Below, one piece after another: positions 1-10,292 of a stretch of 10,292 nt of DNA. The first letter of the stretch is position 1. The number at the start of each line of letters is the position of its first letter. Location of the stretch: the IMG/VR virus record IMGVR_UViG_2681813316_000013, positions 1-10,292 of that record. The stretch is one strand, 5' to 3'. The stretch comes from a virus. Taxonomy: Duplodnaviria > Heunggongvirae > Uroviricota > Caudoviricetes. The position numbers and the translations under genes were made by a program. Under the pieces are notes generated by a model. That model had not been told where the DNA came from, searched no databases, and saw nothing but the letters and a program-made list of their open reading frames with translations.

Positions 1-469
1 TGCTGCTATTGGTGGTGGGGCTGTTGCCATAGCGTCTGTGCTCATCACTGGTCCGAGTGGTGACGATGGCCTGGAAGGTGTCAGCTACATACCATACGAA
101 GATATCGTTGGCGTATGGACTGTATGTCACGGACACACCGGAAAAGACATCATGCCCGGTAAAACGTATACCGAAGCAGAATGCAAAGCCCTCCTGAATA
201 AAGACCTTGCCACGGTCGCCAGACAAATAAACCCGTACATCAACGTCGATATACCGGAAACAACGCGCGGCGCTCTTTACTCGTTCGTTTACAACGTGGG
301 CGCTGGCAATTTCAGAACATCGACGCTTCTTCGCAAAATAAACCAGGGCGATATCAAAGGCGCATGTGATCAGCTACGGCGCTGGACATACGCTGGCGGT
401 AAGCAATGGAAAGGGCTGATGACTCGCCGTGAGATTGAGCGTGAAGTCTGTTTGTGGGGGCAACAATGA
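1..469 (+). CDS. R: SAR endolysin (phage lysozyme, T4-lysozyme-like GH24 family), 5'-partial; reading frame phase starts at position 2
   Basis: Frame is open from the window edge to TGA 467-469. Translation ...[49 protein letters not shown]... has a Gly/Ala-rich signal-anchor-release segment followed by a lysozyme core with E-8aa-D-5aa-T spacing (LEG...YEDIVGVWT) as in T4 lysozyme E11/D20/T26 and phage 21 R. The true start lies upstream of the window. Confidence 0.9.
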
Positions 470-1904: not shown

Positions 1905-1925
1905 TTATCTATGCCGGGAATAAAA

Positions 1926-2252
1926 ATGAAAAGAAATCTTCCGTTAATTATTTTGTTGTCTTCTTTGGTTATGGGCTGTACGCAACATAAAACAGATATG
2001 CCTCGACAGTTGGTTAAGGCATTACCACAATATCCGGCCTATGCCGCGGCAAATTATATAAAGGGACGGGTTGATGTGAAGTTTGATATTGGTGCTGATG
2101 GTACTGTCACCCGAATTGAGTTTATCCGTTCAGAGCCGCACCATCTGTTTGATGAGCAGGTTGTAAAGGCGATGGCAAAATGGCGATTTGAGAAGGACAA
2201 GCCGCGTAAAGGCGTGAAGAAAACATTTATCTTTAGTCCTTCAGCACCCTGA
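1926..2252 (+). CDS. Lipoprotein with TonB C-terminal domain (free TonB-CTD, no TonB N-terminal anchor or Pro-rich spacer)
   Basis: Translation MKRNLPLIILLSSLVMGC/TQHK... has a signal peptide with lipobox-like VMGC and +2 Thr. The mature part ...PQYPAYAAANYIKGRVDVKFDIGADGTVTRIEFIRSEPHHLFDEQVVKAMAKWRFEKDKPRKGVKKTFIFSP matches E. coli TonB C-domain motifs (YPxxA...G.V.VKFD...DG.V...P...F...V..AM..WR.E..KP..G) as I recall them. Alternative start ATG 1911. Confidence 0.8.
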   Translation: MKRNLPLIILLSSLVMGCTQHKTDMPRQLVKALPQYPAYAAANYIKGRVDVKFDIGADGTVTRIEFIRSEPHHLFDEQVVKAMAKWRFEKDKPRKGVKKTFIFSPSAP

Positions 2253-2711
2253 TTATTTTATCAGAAGTTAATTATCACTCTGTTGCTATTCAGTACATCC
2301 CTGCAGGGTAAAGTCTTGTTTCGCCGGATATGAAGATGAAATATTGTTAGAAGACAGTAGCTACCGGTTCCTGTAACCGAACGTTCATTTCTCGTTATTT
2401 TTCATGCTGGCCGGGCGCAGGTGCTTTGCATCTGTTGCCAGCCTTCTCCTGCAGGCTTCAATAACCCATGCCGAAAAATTACCCGATCCCTTACGTTCAA
2501 GGGCAATATGGATTTGATTAATCATCTGGTTTGGGAAGCTTTATTTTTTGATGACATTGTGTTTTTCCGTGTTCAGTGCTGCTGATTTGTATTGTCTTAA
2601 GATGTCTTTACGTTAAGTTGACACAGATCAATTAATGCATGACTTGGACAAAATTGATTATTTGTCGTGGTTTTATGGTGTACGTGGGATGTGTGATGGT
2701 ATTTATATAAA

Positions 2712-2726
2712 TGATAATTATTATCA
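2712..2726. promoter_or_regulatory. Fur-box-like perfect 7-1-7 palindrome TGATAAT-T-ATTATCA
   Basis: TGATAATTATTATCA is a perfect inverted repeat. The enclosing 19-mer ATAAATGATAATTATTATC (2707-2725) matches the classical Fur consensus GATAATGATAATCATTATC at 15/19 positions. It lies 37 bp upstream of cosN in AT-rich DNA; the target gene is unclear. Confidence 0.3.
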
Positions 2727-2762
2727 TTTATTGGGTCCTTTCCGGCGATCCGGCAGGCTACG

Positions 2763-2774
2763 GGGCGGCGACCT
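2763..2774 (+). other. cosN: cosN, cohesive-end nicking site of the phage genome (lambda / phage 21 type 12-nt cohesive end)
   Basis: GGGCGGCGACCT at 2763-2774 followed by CGCGGGTTTTCGCTATTTATGAAAATTTTCCGG, which matches the lambda left end as I recall it. It sits about 195 bp upstream of the small terminase start, the same spacing as lambda cosN to Nu1. Confidence 0.85.
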
Positions 2775-2810
2775 CGCGGGTTTTCGCTATTTATGAAAAT
2801 TTTCCGGGAT

Positions 2811-2915
2811 CCATGTCCGGTTTCTCTTCAAGTTAACTATATGAAAAATATAAAAACAGGTCTTCTGTGAACCGGACATGAACAAAAAACAGACATGTAA
2901 ACCGGACATGACCGG
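2811..2915 (+). repeat. cosB: cosB-like region: three copies of a CCGGACATG element (candidate small-terminase binding sites R3/R2/R1) separated by an AT-rich spacer
   Basis: CATGTCCGG (2812-2820, inverted), AACCGGACATG (2870-2880) and AACCGGACATG (2900-2910, followed by ACCGG), plus a partial GACATG at 2892-2897. The A/T-rich stretch 2821-2860 between first and second copy is where an IHF-type bend site would be expected. All lie between cosN and the small terminase gene. Confidence 0.6.
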
Positions 2916-2957
2916 TTTTGTTGTGATTGTGAGGTGAGAGTTTTTGCGAGGTGAGGA

Positions 2958-3467
2958 GTGGCTACGCAGACTGAAGTTGCCAGGCATTTAAGTCTGACCG
3001 ATCGCCAGCTTCGCAGATTGCAGAAATTGCCGGGTGCCCCGATATCGAATAAGCGAGGGCAACTGGATCTGGATGCCTGGCGCGATTTTTACATATCGTA
3101 TCTGAGGAGAAGTAAAAACGATGTGCCTGATGGCGATAGCGAAGACGACTATGAGGAGAAATTGCTTATTGCCAGATGGGAACTGACAGCAGAACAGGCT
3201 GTTACACAGCAGTTAAAAAATGAGGTGTCAAAAGGAAAACTTATTGACACCGGGTTCTGTATTTTTGCCCTCAGTAAGCTGGCAATGGCGTTATCCAGTA
3301 CGCTTGATTCCATCCCTTTATCCATGCAGCGACAGTTTTCTGATTTAACACCGCGCCATCTTGACCATCTGAAAACCCTTATTGCTAAGGGGGCAAATCA
3401 GTGTGCGCGGGCAGGGGATAAATTACCGGATTTACTCGATGAATATATCAGAGCAACAACTGAATAA
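2958..3467 (+). CDS. nu1: Terminase small subunit (Nu1 family)
   Basis: GTG start at 2958, with GAGG at 2948-2951 six nt upstream. Translation aligns with lambda Nu1, especially the C-terminal two-thirds (…TGFCIFALSKLA…LDSIPLSMQRQFSDL…HLDHLK…LPDLLDEYI…). The N-terminal DNA-binding region is diverged. Stop TAA 3465-3467 overlaps the large terminase start. Confidence 0.9.
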   Translation: MATQTEVARHLSLTDRQLRRLQKLPGAPISNKRGQLDLDAWRDFYISYLRRSKNDVPDGDSEDDYEEKLLIARWELTAEQAVTQQLKNEVSKGKLIDTGFCIFALSKLAMALSSTLDSIPLSMQRQFSDLTPRHLDHLKTLIAKGANQCARAGDKLPDLLDEYIRATTE

Positions 3468-5367
3468 TATGATGGCTGCCGTTTCGGTTGCGCTGCAGCC
3501 TCTGGTCAGGGTTGTACCAATGACGGCAGTTGAATGGGCTGATCAAAATTATTATCTGCCTAAAGAATCTTCATATGGTGAGGGAGAATGGAAAACGCTG
3601 CCATTCCAGATCGCCATTATGAACTGTATGGGTAACGACCAGGTTCGCACGGTTAACCTGATTAAATCTGCCCGTGTTGGCTATACAAAGATGTTGCTGG
3701 GGGTGGTCGGGTATTTTATTGAGCATAAATCCCGAAACAGTCTGCTTTTTCAGCCCACGGATTCTGCCGCTGAAGATTTTATGAAGTCTCACGTGGAGGC
3801 GACGATTCGGAACGTGCCATGCCTGAAAGACCTTTCCCCATGGCTGGGGCGTAAACATCGTGACAATACTCTCACGCTGAAACGCTTTTCATCGGGCGTC
3901 GGTTTCTGGTGCCTGGGCGGCGCTGCCGCCAAAAACTACCGTGAAAAATCCGTGGACGTGGTCTGCTATGACGAACTTTCCTCGTTCGAGCCGGATGTCG
4001 AAAAAGAGGGCTCGCCAACCCTGCTGGGGGATAAGCGTATTGAGGGGTCGGTGTGGCCAAAATCCATTCGCGGCTCGACGCCTAAAATCAAAGGCACCTG
4101 CCAGATCGAAAAAGCCGCTAACGAGTCGGCGCATTTTATGCGTTTTTATGTGCCCTGCCCGCACTGTGGGGAGGAGCAGTATCTGAAATTTGGCGATGAG
4201 TCCACGCCTTTTGGGCTTAAATGGGAGAAGGACAGCCCTGAAAGTGTTTTCTACCTCTGTGAACATCATGGCTGCGTGATCCATCAGTCTGAACTGGACC
4301 AGAGCAACGGGCGGTGGATCTGTGAAAACACGGGCATGTGGACCCGTGACGGTCTGACGTTTTTCAGCGCCCGGGGTGATGAAATTCCGCCGCCGCGCTC
4401 CATCACGTTCCATATCTGGACGGCGTACAGTCCGTTCACCACCTGGGTACAGATTGTCTATGACTGGCTGGATGCACTGAAAGATCCCAACGGCCTGAAA
4501 ACCTTTGTGAACACCACGCTGGGCGAGACCTGGGAAGAGGCCGTGGGCGAAAAACTCGATCACCAGGTACTGATGGATAAGGTGGTGCGTTACACGGCGG
4601 CGGTGCCTGCCCGGGTGGTTTATCTGACGGCGGGCATTGACTCGCAGCGAAACCGTTTTGAGATGTATGTCTGGGGATGGGCTCCGGGAGAGGAAGCCTT
4701 TCTGGTGGATAAAATCATCATTATGGGGCGTCCTGATGAGGAAGAGACGCTGTTACGTGTGGATGCGGCGATCAACAAAAAATACCGCCATGCGGATGGC
4801 ACCGAAATGACTATTTCCCGTGTCTGCTGGGACACCGGGGGGATCGATGGTGAAATTGTTTATCAGAGATCAAAAAAACACGGTGTTTTCCGGGTGCTGC
4901 CGGTAAAAGGCGCATCTGTCTATGGCAAGCCGGTGATCACCATGCCAAAAACCCGCAATCAGCGGGGCGTGTATCTGTGTGAAGTGGGAACGGACACCGC
5001 AAAAGAAATTCTCTATGCCCGTATGAAAGCCGATCCCTCGCCTGCGGATGAAGCCACGTCGTATGCCATCCGTTTTCCTGATGATCCGGAGATTTTTTCG
5101 CAGACAGAGGCGCAGCAACTGGTGGCGGAAGAGCTGGTGGAGAAGTGGGAAAAAGGAAAGATGCGTCTGCTGTGGGATAACAAAAAGCGGCGTAACGAAG
5201 CGCTGGACTGCCTGGTGTATGCCTACGCGGCATTACGTGTGTCCGTGCAACGCTGGCAGCTTGATCTGGCTGTACTGGCAAAATCCCGGGAAGAAGAGAC
5301 GACCCGGCCAACCCTGAAAGAACTGGCAGCGAAGCTGTCCGGAGGAGTGAATGGTTACAGTCGCTGA
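3439..5367 (+). CDS. A: Terminase large subunit (gpA family; ATPase and nuclease)
   Basis: ATG 3439 gives MNISEQQLNN..., colinear with lambda gpA (MNISNSQVNR...) over about 642 aa, including TAVEWAD.NYYLPKES, KSARVGY.KMLLG, GFWCLGG.AAKNYREKSVDV, GDKRIEGSVWPKSIRGSTPK, WTAYSPFTTWVQIV, VNTTLGETWE, KKRRNEALDC. The ORF track's start at 3382 is an upstream in-frame extension with no support. Confidence 0.95.
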   Translation: MNISEQQLNNMMAAVSVALQPLVRVVPMTAVEWADQNYYLPKESSYGEGEWKTLPFQIAIMNCMGNDQVRTVNLIKSARVGYTKMLLGVVGYFIEHKSRNSLLFQPTDSAAEDFMKSHVEATIRNVPCLKDLSPWLGRKHRDNTLTLKRFSSGVGFWCLGGAAAKNYREKSVDVVCYDELSSFEPDVEKEGSPTLLGDKRIEGSVWPKSIRGSTPKIKGTCQIEKAANESAHFMRFYVPCPHCGEEQYLKFGDESTPFGLKWEKDSPESVFYLCEHHGCVIHQSELDQSNGRWICENTGMWTRDGLTFFSARGDEIPPPRSITFHIWTAYSPFTTWVQIVYDWLDALKDPNGLKTFVNTTLGETWEEAVGEKLDHQVLMDKVVRYTAAVPARVVYLTAGIDSQRNRFEMYVWGWAPGEEAFLVDKIIIMGRPDEEETLLRVDAAINKKYRHADGTEMTISRVCWDTGGIDGEIVYQRSKKHGVFRVLPVKGASVYGKPVITMPKTRNQRGVYLCEVGTDTAKEILYARMKADPSPADEATSYAIRFPDDPEIFSQTEAQQLVAEELVEKWEKGKMRLLWDNKKRRNEALDCLVYAYAALRVSVQRWQLDLAVLAKSREEETTRPTLKELAAKLSGGVNGYSR

Positions 5368-5557
5368 ACTGCAGGCGCTGCGTCAGGCGCGCCTTGATTT
5401 ATTAACCGGTAAACGGGTGGTGTCTGTCCAGAAAGATGGTCGCAGAATTGAATATACGGCGGCTTCTCTGGATGAGCTTAACCGGGCGATCAATGATGCG
5501 GAGTCGGTACTGGGGACAACCCGGCGTCGCCGTCGTCCGCTGGGAGTGAGGTTATGA
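5351..5557 (+). CDS. W: Head-tail joining / head completion protein gpW
   Basis: 68 aa; LTGKRVVSVQKDGRRIEYTAASLDEL matches lambda W ([27 protein letters not shown]). Start overlaps the end of the large terminase gene; stop overlaps the portal start (ATGA). Confidence 0.9.
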   Translation: MVTVAELQALRQARLDLLTGKRVVSVQKDGRRIEYTAASLDELNRAINDAESVLGTTRRRRRPLGVRL

Positions 5558-7146
5558 AACGAACGCCTGTCCTGATTGATGTGAACGGCGTTCCGCTTCG
5601 TGAGAGTCTCAGCTACAACGGGGGCGGTGCAGGATTTGGCGGGCAAATGGCGGAGTGGTTGCCACCGGCGCAGAGTGCCGATGCGGCCCTGCTGCCCGCG
5701 TTGCGTCTGGGGAATGCCCGGGCAGATGATCTGGTGCGCAATAACGGAATAGCGGCCAATGCGGTGGCCCTGCATAAGGATCACATTGTCGGGCATATGT
5801 TTCTTATCAGCTACCGTCCGAACTGGCGCTGGCTGGGGATGCGGGAGACCGCAGCAAAAAGCTTTGTCGATGAGGTGGAGGCGGCCTGGTCGGAATACGC
5901 CGAAGGGATGTCTGGCGAGATCGACGTGGAAGGAAAACGCACGTTCACGGAATTTATCCGTGAAGGTGTGGGCGTTCATGCGTTTAACGGCGAAATCTTT
6001 GTGCAGCCGGTCTGGGATACGGAAACCACGCAGTTATTCCGTACGCGTTTTAAAGCCGTGAGTCCGAAACGGGTGGACACGCCAGGACACGGTATGGGGA
6101 ACCGTTTTCTGCGGGCCGGGGTGGAGGTCGATCGATATGGCCGTGCCGTTGCGTACCATATCTGTGAGGATGATTTTCCGTTCTCCGGGAGTGGACGATG
6201 GGAACGGATCCCGCGTGAACTTCCCACCGGGCGTCCGGCCATGCTGCATATTTTCGAGCCGGTGGAGGACGGGCAGACCCGTGGGGCCAACCAGTTTTAC
6301 AGCGTCATGGAACGGCTGAAGATGCTCGATTCCCTGCAGGCAACACAGCTTCAGTCGGCCATTGTGAAAGCCATGTATGCAGCGACGATTGAAAGTGACC
6401 TTGATACCGAAAAGGCCTTTGAATATATCGCCGGTGCGCCGCAGGGGCAGAAGGATAATCCGCTTATTAATATTCTGGAGAAGTTCTCCAGCTGGTATGA
6501 CACGAATAACGTGACGCTGGGTGGTGTCAAAATTCCGCACCTTTTCCCCGGGGATGATCTGAAACTACAGACTGCGCAGGATTCAGACAATGGATTTTCG
6601 GCGCTTGAACAGGCGCTGCTGCGGTATATCGCCGCCGGTCTTGGCGTTTCCTACGAACAGTTGTCCCGTGATTACTCGAAGGTCAGTTATTCAAGTGCCA
6701 GGGCCTCTGCCAATGAGTCGTGGCGCTATTTTATGGGGCGGCGAAAATTTATTGCGGCCCGGCTGGCCACGCAGATGTTTTCCTGCTGGCTGGAAGAGGC
6801 ACTTCTTCGGGGGATTATCCGTCCGCCACGGGCGCGTTTTGATTTTTATCAGGCGCGATCAGCCTGGTCACGGGCAGAGTGGATTGGTGCCGGAAGAATG
6901 GCCATTGACGGGCTCAAGGAGGTTCAGGAATCGGTGATGCGCATTGAGGCCGGACTGAGCACGTATGAGAAAGAGCTGGCGCTGATGGGCGAGGATTATC
7001 AGGACATTTTCCGCCAGCAGGTCAGGGAATCTGCAGAGCGGCAAAAAGCCGGACTCTCACGTCCGGTGTGGATAGCGCAGGCGTATCAGCAGCAGATAGC
7101 GGAGAGTCGCAGGCCGGAAGAGGAGACAACACCCCGTGAGACGTAA
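5554..7146 (+). CDS. B: Portal protein (gpB family)
   Basis: 530 aa, colinear with lambda gpB: GNARADDLVRNNG, EPVEDGQTRGAN.FYSVME..KMLD.LQ.TQLQSAIVKAMYAATIES, LQTAQD.DNG.S..EQ.LLRYIAAGLGVSYEQLSR, ARASANESW.YFMGRRKF, GRMAIDGLKEVQE.VM.IEAGLSTYEKE. Confidence 0.95.
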   Translation: MKRTPVLIDVNGVPLRESLSYNGGGAGFGGQMAEWLPPAQSADAALLPALRLGNARADDLVRNNGIAANAVALHKDHIVGHMFLISYRPNWRWLGMRETAAKSFVDEVEAAWSEYAEGMSGEIDVEGKRTFTEFIREGVGVHAFNGEIFVQPVWDTETTQLFRTRFKAVSPKRVDTPGHGMGNRFLRAGVEVDRYGRAVAYHICEDDFPFSGSGRWERIPRELPTGRPAMLHIFEPVEDGQTRGANQFYSVMERLKMLDSLQATQLQSAIVKAMYAATIESDLDTEKAFEYIAGAPQGQKDNPLINILEKFSSWYDTNNVTLGGVKIPHLFPGDDLKLQTAQDSDNGFSALEQALLRYIAAGLGVSYEQLSRDYSKVSYSSARASANESWRYFMGRRKFIAARLATQMFSCWLEEALLRGIIRPPRARFDFYQARSAWSRAEWIGAGRMAIDGLKEVQESVMRIEAGLSTYEKELALMGEDYQDIFRQQVRESAERQKAGLSRPVWIAQAYQQQIAESRRPEEETTPRET

Positions 7147-8641
7147 TCTTTCACACATTATTGCCGCAGCATTCAATGAACCGCTGCTTCTGGAGCCCGC
7201 CTATGCGCGGGTTTTCTTTTGCGCGCTCGGGCGCGAGATGGGGGCAGCAAGTCTTTCGGTACCACAGCAGCAGGTACAGCTTGATGCTCCCGGAATGCTG
7301 GCTGAAACGGACGAGTACATGGCCGGAGGTAAACGACCGGCCCGTGTTTACCGGGTGGTGAACGGTATTGCTGTACTGCCGGTGATCGGCACGCTGGTGC
7401 ACCGGCTGGGGGGGATGCGGCCATTTTCCGGAATGACAGGCTATGACGGCATTGTCGCCTGTCTTCAGCAGGCAATGGCGGATAGCCAGGTGCGGGGCGT
7501 ACTGCTGGACATTGACAGTCCGGGCGGGCAGGCCGCCGGCGCGTTTGACTGCGCTGACATGATTTACCGCCTCCGTCAGCAGAAGCCGGTCTGGGCACTG
7601 TGCAATGACACGGCCTGTTCTGCAGCCATGCTGCTGGCGTCGGCCTGCTCCCGACGGCTGGTTACCCAGACATCCCGTATCGGCTCCATTGGCGTGATGA
7701 TGAGCCATGTCAGCTATGCCGGTCATCTGGCGCAGGCCGGTGTGGATATCACGCTGATTTACTCAGGGGCGCACAAGGTGGATGGCAATCAGTTTGAAGC
7801 CTTACCGGCAGAGGTTCGCCAGGACATGCAGCAGCGCATTGATGCGGCGCGCCGGATGTTTGCCGAAAAAGTGGCCATGTTTACCGGTCTGTCTGTTGAT
7901 GCCGTCACGGGAACAGAGGCCGCCGTTTTTGAAGGTCAGTCCGGCATTGATGCCGGGCTGGCGGATGAATTAGTCAATGCGTCGGATGCCATCAGTGTGA
8001 TGGCCACGGCGCTGAACAGTAATGTCAGAGGAGGCACTATGCCGCAATTAACTGCAACGGAAGCCGCCGCGCAGGAGAACCAGCGAGTGATGGGGATCCT
8101 GACATGCCAGGAAGCGAAAGGACGTGAACAGCTTGCCACGATGCTGGCAGGACAACAGGGCATGAGCGTTGAACAGGCCCGGGCGATTCTGGCCGCGGCG
8201 GCACCGCAGCAGCCGGTGGCATCCACGCAGAGTGAAGCCGATCGCATTATGGCGTGTGAAGAAGCGAACGGTCGTGAACAACTGGCGGCAACGCTGGCGG
8301 CGATGCCGGAGATGACGGTGGAAAAAGCCCGCCCGATCCTGGCTGCTTCACCGCAGGCGGATGCCGGACCCTCACTCCGTGATCAGATCATGGCACTGGA
8401 TGAGGCAAAAGGGGCTGAGGCGCAGGCTGAACAGCTGGCTGCCTGCCCGGGAATGACTGTGGAGAGCGCCCGGGCTGTGCTGGCTGCGGGATCAGGTAAG
8501 GCAGAACCGGTCTCTGCATCCACAACCGCCCTGTTTGAACGCATCATGGCGAACCATTCACCGGCAGCGGTACAGGGTGGCGTGCCACAGACGTCAGCAG
8601 ACGGTGATGCGGACGTGAAAATGCTCATGGCTATGCCATGA
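7136..8641 (+). CDS. C: Prohead protease / scaffold fusion protein (gpC family, ClpP/S49-like peptidase domain with C-terminal scaffold domain)
   Basis: GTG start 7136 overlapping the portal stop. The N-terminal two-thirds aligns with lambda gpC (AFNEPL.LEPAYARVFFCAL, NGIAVLPV.GTLV, SGMTGY.GI...LQQA, GGQ.AGAFDCAD.I.R.R..KPVWAL, RRLVTQT.R.GSIGVMM.H, GV.ITLIYSG.HKVDGN, DAGLADELVN). The C-terminal third carries scaffold-type motifs. Confidence 0.9.
   Translation: MRRNLSHIIAAAFNEPLLLEPAYARVFFCALGREMGAASLSVPQQQVQLDAPGMLAETDEYMAGGKRPARVYRVVNGIAVLPVIGTLVHRLGGMRPFSGMTGYDGIVACLQQAMADSQVRGVLLDIDSPGGQAAGAFDCADMIYRLRQQKPVWALCNDTACSAAMLLASACSRRLVTQTSRIGSIGVMMSHVSYAGHLAQAGVDITLIYSGAHKVDGNQFEALPAEVRQDMQQRIDAARRMFAEKVAMFTGLSVDAVTGTEAAVFEGQSGIDAGLADELVNASDAISVMATALNSNVRGGTMPQLTATEAAAQENQRVMGILTCQEAKGREQLATMLAGQQGMSVEQARAILAAAAPQQPVASTQSEADRIMACEEANGREQLAATLAAMPEMTVEKARPILAASPQADAGPSLRDQIMALDEAKGAEAQAEQLAACPGMTVESARAVLAAGSGKAEPVSASTTALFERIMANHSPAAVQGGVPQTSADGDADVKMLMAMP
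8039..8641 (+). CDS. nu3: Nu3-like scaffolding protein from an internal in-frame start within C
   Basis: ATG 8039 is in frame with C and preceded by GAGGAGG (8028-8034). The product MPQLTATEAAAQ... (200 aa) corresponds to the Nu3 portion of lambda C/Nu3 and contains the RIMGIL..EEA.GRE-type motif. Confidence 0.55.
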   Translation: MPQLTATEAAAQENQRVMGILTCQEAKGREQLATMLAGQQGMSVEQARAILAAAAPQQPVASTQSEADRIMACEEANGREQLAATLAAMPEMTVEKARPILAASPQADAGPSLRDQIMALDEAKGAEAQAEQLAACPGMTVESARAVLAAGSGKAEPVSASTTALFERIMANHSPAAVQGGVPQTSADGDADVKMLMAMP

Positions 8642-8677
8642 AGTCAGTGCTGACCATCAACAGGAGGTTTTTACAAT

Positions 8678-9025
8678 ATGGTAACGAAAACCATCACTGA
8701 ACAGCGTGCGGAAGTACGTATTTTTGCCGGTAATGATCCGGCTCATACCGCCACAGGCAGCAGCGGGATTTCCTCGGCAACACCGGCACTGACGCCCCTG
8801 ATGCTGGATGAAGCTACCGGGAAACTGGTGGTCTGGGACGGACAGAAAGCCGGTAGTGCGGTTGGCATACTGGTACTGCCGCTTGAAGGCACAGAGACGG
8901 TACTGACGTATTACAAGTCGGGGACCTTTGCGACGGAGGCAATCCGCTGGCCTGACAGTGTGGATGAACACAAAAAGGCAAATGCCTTTGCCGGCAGTGC
9001 CCTGAGTCACGCGGCGCTGCCGTAA
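8678..9025 (+). CDS. D: Head decoration protein (gpD family)
   Basis: AGGAGG at 8663-8668, then ATG 8678. 115 aa with NDPAHTAT, TPLMLD...KLV.WDG...G.AVGIL, YKSGTF, AFAG.A.S shared with lambda gpD. Confidence 0.9.
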   Translation: MVTKTITEQRAEVRIFAGNDPAHTATGSSGISSATPALTPLMLDEATGKLVVWDGQKAGSAVGILVLPLEGTETVLTYYKSGTFATEAIRWPDSVDEHKKANAFAGSALSHAALP

Positions 9026-9082
9026 CACGTTATCAGGCCACCGCGGTGGCCTGACTGATTTCTGAATGAAAGGAACTGATTT

Positions 9083-10111
9083 ATGGGATTGTTTACGACC
9101 CGCCAGTTACTCGGTTATACCGAACAAAAAGTGAAATTTCGTGCGCTGTTTCTGGAGCTGTTTTTCCGCCGTACGGTGAATTTCCATACCGAAGAGGTGA
9201 TGCTGGACAAAATTACCGGAAAAACGCCGGTGGCGGCCTATGTCTCCCCGGTTGTTGAAGGAAAAGTGCTGCGTCATCGCGGTGGTGAAACCCGCGTGTT
9301 ACGTCCGGGCTACGTCAAGCCGAAACACGAATTTAATTACCAGCAGGCGGTTGAGCGTCTTCCCGGTGAAGATCCGGCTCAGCTGAACGACCCGGCCTAC
9401 CGTCGTCTGCGTATCATCACCGATAACCTCAAACAGGAAGAGCATGCCATTGTCCAGGTGGAAGAAATGCAGGCGGTGAATGCCGTGCTGTATGGCAAAT
9501 ACACCATGGAAGGGGATCAGTTTGATACTGTCGAGGTGGATTTTGGACGCTCTGAAGGAAATAACATTGAGCAGGCCGACGGTAAAAAATGGTCTGAGCA
9601 GGACCGTGATACGTTTGATCCGACGCATGATATTGACCTCTACTGCGATCAGGCCAGCGGTCTTGTGAATATTGCCATTATGGACGGTACTGTCTGGCGT
9701 CTGCTGAATGGTTTTAAGCTGTTCCGCGAAAAACTGGATACCCGTCGCGGCTCAAATTCACAACTCGAAACGGCAGTGAAAGACCTGGGAGCGGTGGTGT
9801 CTTTCAAAGGGTATTACGGTGATCTGGCCATTGTGGTGGCGAAAACGTCTTATGTGGCAGACGACGGTACCGAAAAACGTTATCTGCCGGTGGGCACACT
9901 GGTCCTGGGGAATACGGCAGCAGAGGGCATTCGTTGCTATGGTGCCATTCAGGATGCGCAGGCGTTGTCCGAAGGTGTGGTGGCCTCTTCCCGTTATCCG
10001 AAACACTGGCTGACTGTGGGCGATCCGGCCCGTGAATTCACCATGACGCAGTCCGCACCGCTGATGGTGCTGCCGGATCCGGATGAGTTTGTGGTGGTGC
10101 AGGTGAAATAA
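9083..10111 (+). CDS. E: Major capsid protein (gpE family, HK97 fold)
   Basis: AAAGGA upstream of ATG 9083. 342 aa colinear with lambda gpE: FTTEKV.L..I, YVSP.V.G.V.R.RGG, PGYVKPKHE, DPAYRR.RII..N...EE.AI.QVEEMQAV.AVL.GKYTM.G, KLDTRRGSNS.LETAVKDLG, YPK.W.T.GDPAREFTM.QSAPLM.L.DPDEFV.VQ. Confidence 0.95.
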   Translation: MGLFTTRQLLGYTEQKVKFRALFLELFFRRTVNFHTEEVMLDKITGKTPVAAYVSPVVEGKVLRHRGGETRVLRPGYVKPKHEFNYQQAVERLPGEDPAQLNDPAYRRLRIITDNLKQEEHAIVQVEEMQAVNAVLYGKYTMEGDQFDTVEVDFGRSEGNNIEQADGKKWSEQDRDTFDPTHDIDLYCDQASGLVNIAIMDGTVWRLLNGFKLFREKLDTRRGSNSQLETAVKDLGAVVSFKGYYGDLAIVVAKTSYVADDGTEKRYLPVGTLVLGNTAAEGIRCYGAIQDAQALSEGVVASSRYPKHWLTVGDPAREFTMTQSAPLMVLPDPDEFVVVQVK

Positions 10112-10119
10112 TCCGTGAG

Positions 10120-10148
10120 CGGGGGCGAAATGCCCCCGTGTCTTTTTT
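10120..10148 (+). terminator. Rho-independent terminator-like hairpin after the major capsid gene
   Basis: Stem CGGGGGC (10120-10126) / GCCCCCG (10132-10138), 5-nt loop GAAAT, followed by TGTCTTTTTTC. Begins 9 nt after the E stop (TAA 10109-10111) and ends before the FI ribosome-binding site. Confidence 0.6.
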
Positions 10149-10162
10149 CACAGGAGGCTGAG

Positions 10163-10292
10163 ATGGCAACAAAAGAAGAAAATCTGAATCGTCTTCGTCA
10201 ACTGGCTGGCCTGCTGGGGCGCGAGGCGGATATGTCGGGGAGTGCTGCGGATATTGCGCAACGTGTGTCTGAGTGGGAAGAGGAGCTTGCTG
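10163..10292 (+). CDS. FI: DNA-packaging protein gpFI family, 3'-partial (continues beyond window)
   Basis: AGGAGG at 10153-10158, then ATG 10163. Translation MATKEENLNRLRQLAGLLGREADMSGSAADIAQRVSEWEEELA resembles the lambda FI N-terminus (MTKDELIARLRSLGEQLNRDVSLTGTKEELALRVAELKEEL) and is in the correct position after E. Confidence 0.8.
   Translation, partial: MATKEENLNRLRQLAGLLGREADMSGSAADIAQRVSEWEEELA

What the first reader, a model, noticed from the sequence alone, without database searches (positions are those of the whole stretch)
2763..2960. Lambda-identical cosN and left-end sequence joined to a non-lambda cosB with CCGGACATG repeats
From 2763 to about 2808 the sequence matches the lambda left end as I recall it (GGGCGGCGACCTCGCGGGTTTTCGCTATTTATGAAAATTTTCCGG). 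It then diverges into three copies of CCGGACATG (one inverted, two direct) instead of lambda's CGTTTCC-type R sites. The N-terminal DNA-binding part of the small terminase is correspondingly unlike lambda Nu1, while its C-terminal half and gpA are lambda-like. This is the pattern expected for a packaging-specificity switch (as between lambda and phage 21) and marks a mosaic recombination joint inside cos.
Basis: partly seen in the sequence, partly recalled or inferred. Interest (0 to 1): 0.45.

Follow-up and report, generated by a model that had tools for sequence, protein, structure and literature searches.

The report
Third-specificity cos site of lambdoid prophage
This is the DNA-packaging start site (cos) of an E. 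coli lambda-like prophage, in which the universal cutting site is joined to a distinct set of small-terminase binding repeats and a matching terminase DNA-binding domain. It is an ordinary kind of element, but a packaging specificity I found nowhere in the papers I could search, and the same site also sits unexplained in a well-studied phage satellite.

Summary
Window 2763-2807 equals lambda bp 1-45 exactly, then similarity stops. The repeat is the 11-mer AACCGGACATG, exact three times: 2812-2822(-), 2870-2880(+) and 2900-2910(+). These lie at left-end bp 50-60, 108-118 and 138-148, the positions of lambda R3, R2 and roughly R1. An IHF-like site (2834-2846) sits where lambda I1 does.

The small terminase (2958-3467) matches Pfam Nu1 only in its C-terminal part. 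Its N-terminal 55 residues still model as a Nu1/MerR-type winged helix-turn-helix.

In 11 diverged relatives (60-80% TerS identity) cosQ, cosN, I2, R3, I1 and R2 keep fixed spacing. The variable half of the R sites changes in concert within each phage and tracks TerS residue 20.

One correction: the backbone is phage-21-like, not lambda-like (TerL 94% against 66%). The replaced cassette is about 2808-3618, covering cosB, TerS and the first ~60 TerL codons. The 45-mer occurs in most E. coli genomes, so it is a conserved block and not lambda-derived.

The module is common, in 1147 of 5426 complete E. coli genomes. I rate it a new member of a known kind.

Side finding: the second, unexplained cos of satellite EcCICFT073 carries this cosB.

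The parts
2733..2739 (+). cosQ (GGGTCCT), the packaging-termination element about 30 bp upstream of cosN
   Evidence: Invariant in all family loci and in lambda and phage 21. It falls within the region annotated 'R4' in the phage 21 record M81255. Feiss et al. describe the 7-bp cosQ as highly conserved (PMC4669245).
2763..2774 (+). cosN cohesive-end sequence GGGCGGCGACCT (12-nt 5' overhang; inferred nick sites flank it)
   Evidence: Identical to lambda bp 1-12 and to phage 21. Cleavage is inferred and was not tested.
2792..2806 (+). I2-equivalent (TATGAAAATTTTCCG), the end of the universally conserved block
   Evidence: Position homologous to the I2 IHF site annotated in phage 21 (M81255 196-210). 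TTATGAAAATTT is near-invariant across the family.
2812..2822 (-). R3-equivalent TerS binding site (AACCGGACATG on the minus strand), left-end bp 50-60
   Evidence: Exact 11-mer. Same position as lambda R3 (bp 50-65) and N15 R3 (bp 48-60) (PMC9026076). Its distance from cosQ is nearly constant (78-80 bp, 79 in 9) in the 11 relatives carrying a complex (R3-I1-R2) cosB.
2834..2846 (+). I1-equivalent IHF-like site TAACTATATGAAA (7/9 to YAANNNNTTGATW), left-end bp 72-84
   Evidence: The best consensus match lies at the same offset, 11 nt after R3, in 10 of 11 diverse loci, and four of them match 9/9. Lambda I1 TAACTTAATGTTT at bp 74-86 also scores 7/9 (my count on the sequence). The window's own match is not significant on its own (461 of 1000 shuffles).
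2870..2880 (+). R2-equivalent TerS binding site AACCGGACATG, inverted relative to R3, left-end bp 108-118
   Evidence: Exact inverted repeat of R3 with 47 nt between the arms. The same R3-R2 distance (59 bp start to start) occurs in all relatives with a complex cosB. Lambda R2 lies at about bp 110-125.
2899..2918 (.). R1-equivalent: direct exact copy AAACCGGACATG (2899-2910, +) overlapping an inverted 11/12 copy CATGACCGGTTT (2907-2918)
   Evidence: A direct third copy recurs in Klebsiella (L103/L104), Enterobacter (L105) and satellite cos sites, but is missing in several relatives, so it is probably accessory. Similarity between the window and the satellite cos ends at the last base of this site.
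2958..3467 (+). Small terminase (TerS, 169 aa, GTG start): N-terminal winged HTH of a non-Nu1 sequence family (residues 1-55) plus a Nu1-like C-terminal part
3439..5367 (+). Large terminase (TerL, 642 aa); the first ~60 codons (3439-3618) belong to the exchanged cassette and the rest is phage-21-like
   Evidence: 94% amino-acid identity to phage 21 gp2 and 66% to lambda gpA. DNA identity to phage 21 is 0.33-0.73 per 30-nt bin up to 3618 and mostly 0.8-1.0 after it, with a dip to 0.50-0.67 at 3799-3858.
2808..3618 (+). Packaging-specificity cassette (cosB, TerS, TerS-binding N-terminus of TerL) set in a phage-21-like head module
   Evidence: blastn of the window against phage 21 finds only 2708-2803 (88.5%) and 3513-10284 (94.9%), with nothing in between.

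Best explanation
The region is the functional cos site of an E. coli lambdoid prophage whose head genes are phage-21-like. TerL would nick at the conserved cosN (2763-2774).

TerL would be positioned there by TerS dimers. Their N-terminal winged helix-turn-helix domains would bind the inverted pair R3 (2812-2822) and R2 (2870-2880). An IHF-induced bend at I1 (2834-2846) would bring these two sites together. R1 (2899-2918) would be an accessory site.

The architecture is that of lambda and phage 21. The R-site sequence (AACCGGA + CATG) and the TerS DNA-binding domain belong to a different family, here called 'MATQ' after its invariant N-terminus. So this terminase-cos pair should form a packaging specificity separate from lambda, 21 and N15.

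cosB, terS and the 5' end of terL travel together as an exchangeable cassette. It is flanked on the left by the near-universal cosQ-cosN-I2 block.

Shown: sequence identity, positions, family-wide conservation, concerted variation, and the predicted fold. Inferred: TerS binding to the repeats, IHF binding, cleavage, and lack of cross-packaging.
For: 1. Exact 11-mer three times, with no other exact copy in the window.
2. The sites lie at left-end bp 50-60 and 108-118, matching lambda R3 (50-65) and R2 (~110-125). TerS starts at bp 196, against 191 in lambda.
3. Conservation across relatives. In 11 relatives with 60-80% TerS identity (Salmonella, Klebsiella, Citrobacter, Enterobacter, E. coli) only cosQ, cosN, I2, xxxxTCCGGTT, TAACnnnnTGA and AACCGGAxxTG are conserved. 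The cosQ-R3 distance is 78-80 bp and the R3-R2 distance is 59 bp.
4. Concerted change. Across 213 cos sites, every TerS with helix ..RQLRRLQK has R3 and R2 ending CAT[G/C/T] or [C/T][A/G]TG. Every TerS with ..R[N/D]LQK has AATG, AATC, AGTG or AGTC. Feiss et al. report that recognition-helix residues 20 and 24 set the lambda/21 specificity (PMC4669245).
5. The N-terminal domain models as beta-alpha1-alpha2-wing-alpha3. It superposes on RppC and on the lambda TerS DNA-binding domain.
6. The IHF consensus sits at a fixed offset, and matches 9/9 in four relatives.
7. Independent delimitation by a satellite. The satellite EcCICFT073 has no terS but keeps this cos from cosQ exactly through R1, after which the sequence is unrelated.
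8. The cassette boundaries include the TerL N-terminus.
Against: There is no binding, cleavage or packaging experiment. The co-variation between the TerS helix and the R sites could partly reflect linkage, because the two lie about 100 bp apart, and most of the 213 sites are near-identical E. coli copies, so only about 8 helix variants are independent. The window's own IHF match is weak (7/9, not significant on its own). R1 is not universal, and its main copy is direct to R2, unlike lambda and 21. The R core partly resembles phage 21's R box (GACATGA shared), so some cross-recognition by 21 terminase is not excluded.
Confidence: 0.85

Rival explanations
1. This is not a separate specificity but a drifted phage-21 cosB. 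The CCGGACATG repeats would be 21-type R boxes (CCGACATGAAA) with one extra G, still served by 21-type terminase.
For: The phage 21 R boxes annotated in M81255 have the core CCGACATGAAA. GACATG in R2 lies at left-end bp 113-118 in both phages (my count). The rest of the head operon is 95% phage 21.
Against: The TerS N-terminal domains show no detectable sequence similarity. The family-invariant half of the site, AACCGGA, is the half not shared with 21. The shared CATG is the half that varies within the family. The R3 motif is 3 bp out of register with 21's R3, whereas in lambda shifts of more than 1-2 bp in the cosN-R3 distance impair nicking (PMC4669245). There is no DNA similarity to 21 between 2804 and 3512.
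Confidence: 0.07
2. The repeats are not terminase sites. They would be operators for another DNA-binding protein (for example a regulator of late or moron genes), or chance or structural repeats in an AT-rich leader.
For: No binding data exist. A second pair of direct repeats (TTGYGAGGTGAG at 2927-2938 and 2944-2955) in the same leader shows that this region is generally repetitive.
Against: The distances to cosQ and cosN are nearly fixed across genera. The variable half co-varies with TerS. A satellite that lacks the downstream genes retains the sites. The positions coincide with the experimentally mapped lambda and N15 R3 sites. Three exact 11-mers within 99 bp are far beyond chance.
Confidence: 0.04
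3. The 45-bp lambda identity reflects a recent recombination with lambda itself, giving a true lambda/non-lambda hybrid joint at 2807/2808.
For: 45/45 identity to lambda against 41/45 to phage 21. Similarity ends abruptly at bp 46.
Against: Matches to the cosN-I2 start of the query are present in most complete E. coli genomes, next to diverse cosB types (4417 of 5426 genomes have a match, and the partial matches shown cover nt 1-45). DNA immediately to the left of cosN is only about 69% identical to lambda over 2451-2762. The PICI and PhiR12 copies carry 1-3 substitutions inside the 45-mer while sharing the same cosB. That pattern fits purifying selection on a shared functional block.
Confidence: 0.04

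Closest known systems
Bacteriophage lambda cos (cosQ-cosN-I2-R3-I1-R2-R1) with gpNu1/gpA terminase
   Different: The R sequence is AACCGGACATG, not CGTTTCC-type. The DNA-binding domain has no detectable sequence similarity. The TerS C-terminal part is 45% identical and TerL 66%. The main R1 copy is direct to R2 and 30 bp away, not inverted and about 41 bp away.
Bacteriophage 21 cos with gp1/gp2 (M81255)
   Same: Head operon 94.9% identical in DNA from TerL codon ~25 onward, and TerL 94% identical. The cos architecture is the same. The R boxes share GACATG(A).
   Different: cosB, terS and the first ~60 codons of terL are unrelated at the DNA level. The gp1 DNA-binding domain is not alignable. 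The invariant AACCGGA half is absent from 21's R boxes. The right-end DNA resembles lambda's rather than phage 21's.
N15 / Monarch packaging specificity (Feiss et al. 2015, PMC4669245)
   Same: A lambda-like cosN with a non-lambda, non-21 R3 at bp ~48-60. Both complex (Monarch-like) and simple (N15-like) cosB architectures exist within one TerS family. The MATQ family shows the same split: a complex cosB in enterobacterial prophages, and a simple cosB plus an inverted remote copy inside terS in Aeromonas phage phiARM81ld.
   Different: N15 R3 is GAGGTTGTTGTT and the gp1 N-terminus is MAVLLNKSDMASSLGISVQAFDKW, both unrelated to the window's site and domain.
EcCICFT073 (Gram-negative PICI satellite), second cos site, probably 'cos2' of Fillol-Salom et al. 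2018/2019
   Same: From cosQ to the last base of R1 it is nearly identical to the window and to PhiR12_1, including R3, I1, R2 and R1.
   Different: No terS follows it, and the sequence after R1 is unrelated. It lies on the strand opposite to the Rpp-associated cos, about 750 bp away. The published work reported it as non-essential for lambda- and phi80-mediated transfer and could not identify a phage cosB in it (PMC6092414, PMC6739421).
Escherichia phages PhiR12_1, _2, _4, _5 (PV340549 and following)
   Same: 96% DNA identity over cos and terS. TerS is annotated 'terminase subunit Nu1'. These are the only deposited phage genomes in the collection with this cassette at that level of similarity.
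   Different: The flanking lysis and moron genes differ. No cos features are annotated in those records.

Membership tests
lambda-like cos site (complex cosB type) | 12-nt 5' cohesive-end sequence related to lambda GGGCGGCGACCT, flanked by conserved nick-site bases | tested here: met
   12/12 identical, within a 45/45 identical block. Actual nicking was not tested.
lambda-like cos site (complex cosB type) | cosQ heptamer GGGTCCT about 30 bp upstream of cosN | tested here: met
   GGGTCCT at 2733-2739, 24 bp before the cohesive end, invariant in all relatives.
lambda-like cos site (complex cosB type) | Three R sequences, with R3 at about bp 50-65 and R2 inverted relative to R3 | tested here: met
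   R3 at bp 50-60 (-), R2 at bp 108-118 (+), R1 at bp 138-148. Spacing is conserved in relatives.
lambda-like cos site (complex cosB type) | R1 in the same orientation as R3, opposite to R2 (PMC4669245) | tested here: inconclusive
   The exact R1 copy is direct to R2. An overlapping 11/12 copy (2907-2918) has the R3 orientation. Relatives and satellite cos sites keep only the direct copy.
lambda-like cos site (complex cosB type) | IHF site (I1) between R3 and R2 | tested here: met
   The window scores 7/9 to the consensus, equal to lambda I1. The site is at the same offset in 10 of 11 relatives, and four of them score 9/9. IHF binding itself was not tested.
Phage_Nu1 small terminase (Pfam PF07471) | Whole-protein score above the Pfam gathering threshold | tested here: met
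   64.5 bits against a cutoff of 30.
Phage_Nu1 small terminase (Pfam PF07471) | Nu1-type N-terminal DNA-binding domain (profile positions 1-61) | tested here: not met
lambda packaging specificity | R sites of the CGTTTCC type recognised by the Nu1 helix | tested here: not met
   No such sequence occurs in 2808-2957.
phage 21 packaging specificity | R boxes with core CCGACATGAAA, and the gp1 recognition helix | tested here: not met
   Only GACATG(A) is shared. R3 is 3 bp out of register. The gp1 N-terminus is not alignable. Functional cross-packaging cannot be tested with these tools.
N15/Monarch packaging specificity | R3 GAGGTTGTTGTT and the N15 gp1 recognition helix | tested here: not met
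Rpp-dependent PICI cos | Simple cosB followed at about bp 102 by an rpp gene | tested here: not met
   The window has a complex cosB followed by terS. In EcCICFT073 the rpp-linked cos (L241 32558) has a different cosB.

The most novel reading that the evidence does not exclude
The AACCGGA-type cosB with its 'MATQ' TerS is a fourth, uncharacterised packaging specificity of lambda-like phages. It may itself split into sub-specificities, ..ACATG with Arg20 against ..AAATG or ..AAGTG with Asp/Asn20.

The unexplained second cos site of the model satellite EcCICFT073 would be the cognate site for this class. The satellite would then have two routes into capsids. One is Rpp plus cos1, which subverts lambda-, phi80- and 21-type TerS. 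The other is cos2, packaged directly, without Rpp, by helpers of the class found in this window. That class is present in about a fifth of complete E. coli genomes, including O157:H7.
Probability: 0.5. Interest if true: 0.6.

Novelty: new member of a known kind. Interest (0 to 1): 0.45.

Why it matters
Packaging specificity decides which DNA a lambdoid terminase will cut and encapsidate. It therefore governs interference between co-resident prophages, mobilisation of defective prophages (for example in O157:H7, which carries this cos at 100% identity), and which satellites a helper can spread.

Only three specificities have been characterised experimentally: lambda, 21 and N15. This class is abundant in E. 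coli and has relatives in Salmonella, Klebsiella, Citrobacter and Enterobacter.

It offers a natural co-variation series, TerS residue 20 against R-site base 8, for studying wHTH-DNA recognition. It also gives a concrete, testable explanation for EcCICFT073 cos2. In the published work, deleting cos2 increased lambda-mediated transfer, and no phage cosB could be identified in the island.

Tried and rejected
1. N15/Monarch identity was rejected. N15 R3 and gp1 are unrelated.

2. Gifsy-1 identity was not established. A Salmonella relative (L101) has a cohesive end differing from lambda at bp 8, 9 and 11, as published for Gifsy-1. However, tblastn of the N-terminal domain found no Salmonella phage in the phage collection.

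4. The genome-contig scan returned only 12 loci, mostly distant or partial. The first viral-contig scan returned 80 near-identical copies that were useless for co-variation. Divergent relatives had to be fetched one protein at a time.

5. The half-site cAGACATG at 2890-2897 is not conserved in relatives and was dropped as a site.

6. The 137-aa and 159-aa ORFs next to the satellite cos are not Rpp-like by sequence.

7. Rfam gave no RNA family in the window.

8. A literature search for the PhiR12 phages found nothing usable.

Full report
**What is there**

Reading 2500-3700 and aligning it with lambda (J02459) and phage 21 (M81255) gives the element order cosQ, cosN, I2.
- cosQ is GGGTCCT at 2733-2739.
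- The lambda cohesive-end sequence GGGCGGCGACCT is at 2763-2774.
- The I2 region continues to 2807.

Window 2763-2807 is identical to lambda bp 1-45, and the first mismatch is at bp 46. Phage 21 differs at 4 of these 45 positions.

AACCGGACATG is exact at 2812-2822(-), 2870-2880(+) and 2900-2910(+). An overlapping inverted 11/12 copy lies at 2907-2918. There are no other exact copies in the 10.3-kb window.

**Position relative to known cos anatomy**

| Element | Left-end bp in window | Lambda equivalent |
|---|---|---|
| R3 | 50-60 | 50-65 (N15 R3: 48-60) |
| IHF-like TAACTATATGAAA | 72-84 | I1, 74-86 |
| R2 | 108-118 | about 110-125 |
| R1 | 138-148 | roughly R1 |
| TerS GTG start | 196 | Nu1 starts at 191 |

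The lambda and N15 positions come from PMC9026076. R3 and R2 are inverted with 47 bp between them. This is the geometry that, in lambda, lets an IHF bend present both sites to a TerS dimer (PMC4669245).

**The proteins**

TerS (2958-3467, 169 aa) passes the Pfam Phage_Nu1 threshold, but only over profile positions 62-163. BLASTP aligns only residues ~64-166, at 45% to Nu1 and 39% to phage 21 gp1.

So it works like the Nu1 domain but cannot be recognised as such by sequence.

TerL (3439-5367) is 94% identical to phage 21 gp2 and 66% to lambda gpA. At the DNA level, window 3513-10284 is 94.9% identical to the phage 21 head operon and 2708-2803 is 88.5% identical, with no similarity in between. 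Binned identity shows that the 21-like backbone resumes at about 3619, near TerL codon 60.

The exchanged unit is therefore cosB, terS and the TerS-binding end of terL. This is the segment the Feiss laboratory swaps to change specificity (PMC4669245).

I fetched the DNA upstream of TerS homologs of 60-80% identity from Klebsiella, Salmonella, Citrobacter, Enterobacter, E. coli and metagenomes. In every complex cosB the same blocks are conserved while the intervening DNA is scrambled:
- cosQ, cosN and I2
- an inverted xxxxTCCGGTT 78-80 bp (79 in nine of the eleven) after cosQ
- an IHF consensus 11 nt later, which is 9/9 in four loci
- a direct AACCGGAxxxx, 59 bp after R3

The half AACCGGA never changes. 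The other half changes in concert at R3 and R2 within each phage.

Among 213 cos sites collected from IMG/VR, all TerS with helix ..RQLRRLQK have ..CAT[G/C/T] or ..[C/T][A/G]TG. All TerS with ..R[N/D]LQK have ..AATG, AATC, AGTG or AGTC.

Residue 20 lies in the predicted recognition helix. In lambda and 21, helix residues 20 and 24 set the specificity (PMC4669245). There are two caveats. The helix and the sites are closely linked. And only about eight helix variants are independent.

**Independent delimitation by a satellite**

Some pattern hits lacked a terS gene. They belong to about 10-kb PICI satellites carrying int, primase, SSB, PerC, a capsid-E homolog and a decoration-D homolog.

The prototype EcCICFT073 (NC_004431, 1377930-1388654) has two cos sites.
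- One is followed at bp 102 by a 144-aa ORF that matches RppC at E=5e-31. This is the Rpp-dependent cos1.
- The other, on the opposite strand, is the window-type cos. It is nearly identical from cosQ to the last base of R1 and unrelated afterwards.

I infer that this second site is the published 'cos2'. Deleting cos2 did not reduce lambda- or phi80-mediated transfer; it increased it. The authors also could not identify a phage cosB in the island (PMC6092414, PMC6739421). I found no later paper discussing cos2.

**How common, and how new**

The full 198-nt region occurs in 1147 of 5426 complete E. coli genomes, at 100% identity in O157:H7 strains. In all, 4417 genomes match at least part of the query. 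In the rows shown, the partial matches are the first ~45 nt. Among deposited phages only PhiR12_1, _2, _4 and _5 carry the cassette, at 96% identity.

More distant members of the TerS N-terminal family occur in Aeromonas and Pseudomonas phages. Aeromonas phiARM81ld has a simple cosB, CATTTCCGGTTCCGGTT at bp 52-68. It also has an inverted copy inside terS at bp 251-261. This parallels the N15 'rR2' arrangement.

N15 itself is unrelated. The papers I could search describe the lambda, 21 and N15/Monarch specificities and the Rpp route, but not this class. That library lacks most subscription-journal papers.

**Verdict**

- The backbone is 21-like.
- The cassette extends into terL.
- The TerS C-terminal similarity is only at family level.
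- The lambda-identical 45-mer is a shared conserved block, not a sign of lambda ancestry.

The element is a new member of a well-understood kind. Its main added value is the natural co-variation series and the link to the satellite's second cos site.

Noticed in passing
L241 (NC_004431.1) 33100-33345, minus strand; compare window 2733-2910: The model PICI satellite EcCICFT073 carries the window-type cos, complete from cosQ through R1, on the strand opposite to its Rpp-linked cos (cosN at L241 32558; rppA at 32659-33093). It is probably the published 'cos2', whose role is unexplained. This suggests direct packaging by helpers of the window's TerS class.
   Followed up: partly
L239 (NZ_CP075697.1) 9056-9240 (+) and 9591 down to about 9400 (-): A related PICI between clpS and cspD has the window-type cos plus a second, convergent cos. 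The second cosB (GGTTGTTGTTTAAT ... IHF-like TAATTGATAAG ... inverted AACAACAACC) resembles the N15/Monarch R3. No rpp gene follows it. So this satellite seems to carry two phage-type cos sites of different specificities.
   Followed up: partly
L114 (Aeromonas phage phiARM81ld, KT898133) bp 52-68 and 251-261: A linear-plasmid prophage with a TerS of the same N-terminal family has a simple cosB (CATTTCCGGTTCCGGTT; TerS ATG at bp 79). It also has an inverted exact copy AACCGGAAATG inside terS about 200 bp away. This mirrors the R3 + rR2 layout described for N15 but uses a different recognition sequence.
   Followed up: no
family loci L101, L103, L109, L115, L116, L118 versus window, L099, L105, L107, L111: Within the family there are at least two R-site variants (AACCGGACATG versus AACCGGAAATG or AACCGGAAGTG). 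They track TerS residue 20 (Arg versus Asp or Asn) and not overall TerS similarity. These may be sub-specificities.
   Followed up: partly
window 1911-2252 (+): A 113-aa ORF with a TonB C-terminal domain (Pfam E=2.7e-15) lies between the lysis genes (lysozyme 38-469, Rz 454-903) and cos. This is a moron-like position. The CFT073 prophage has a 'TonB family protein' in the same place.
   Followed up: no
window 2927-2938 and 2944-2955: Direct repeat TTGTGAGGTGAG / TTGCGAGGTGAG immediately upstream of the TerS GTG start, which duplicates the Shine-Dalgarno-like GAGGTGAG. The spacing of the proximal copy to the GTG start is very short.
   Followed up: no
window 2707-2731: A perfect 12-nt inverted repeat, ATAAATGATAAT / ATTATCATTTAT, lies just upstream of cosQ. 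Lambda has a similar GATAATCATTATC palindrome at the equivalent place. Its function is not known to me.
   Followed up: no
window 3799-3858: A local dip in DNA identity to phage 21 (0.50-0.67 in 30-nt bins) inside otherwise ~90% identical terL, suggesting an additional small mosaic patch.
   Followed up: no
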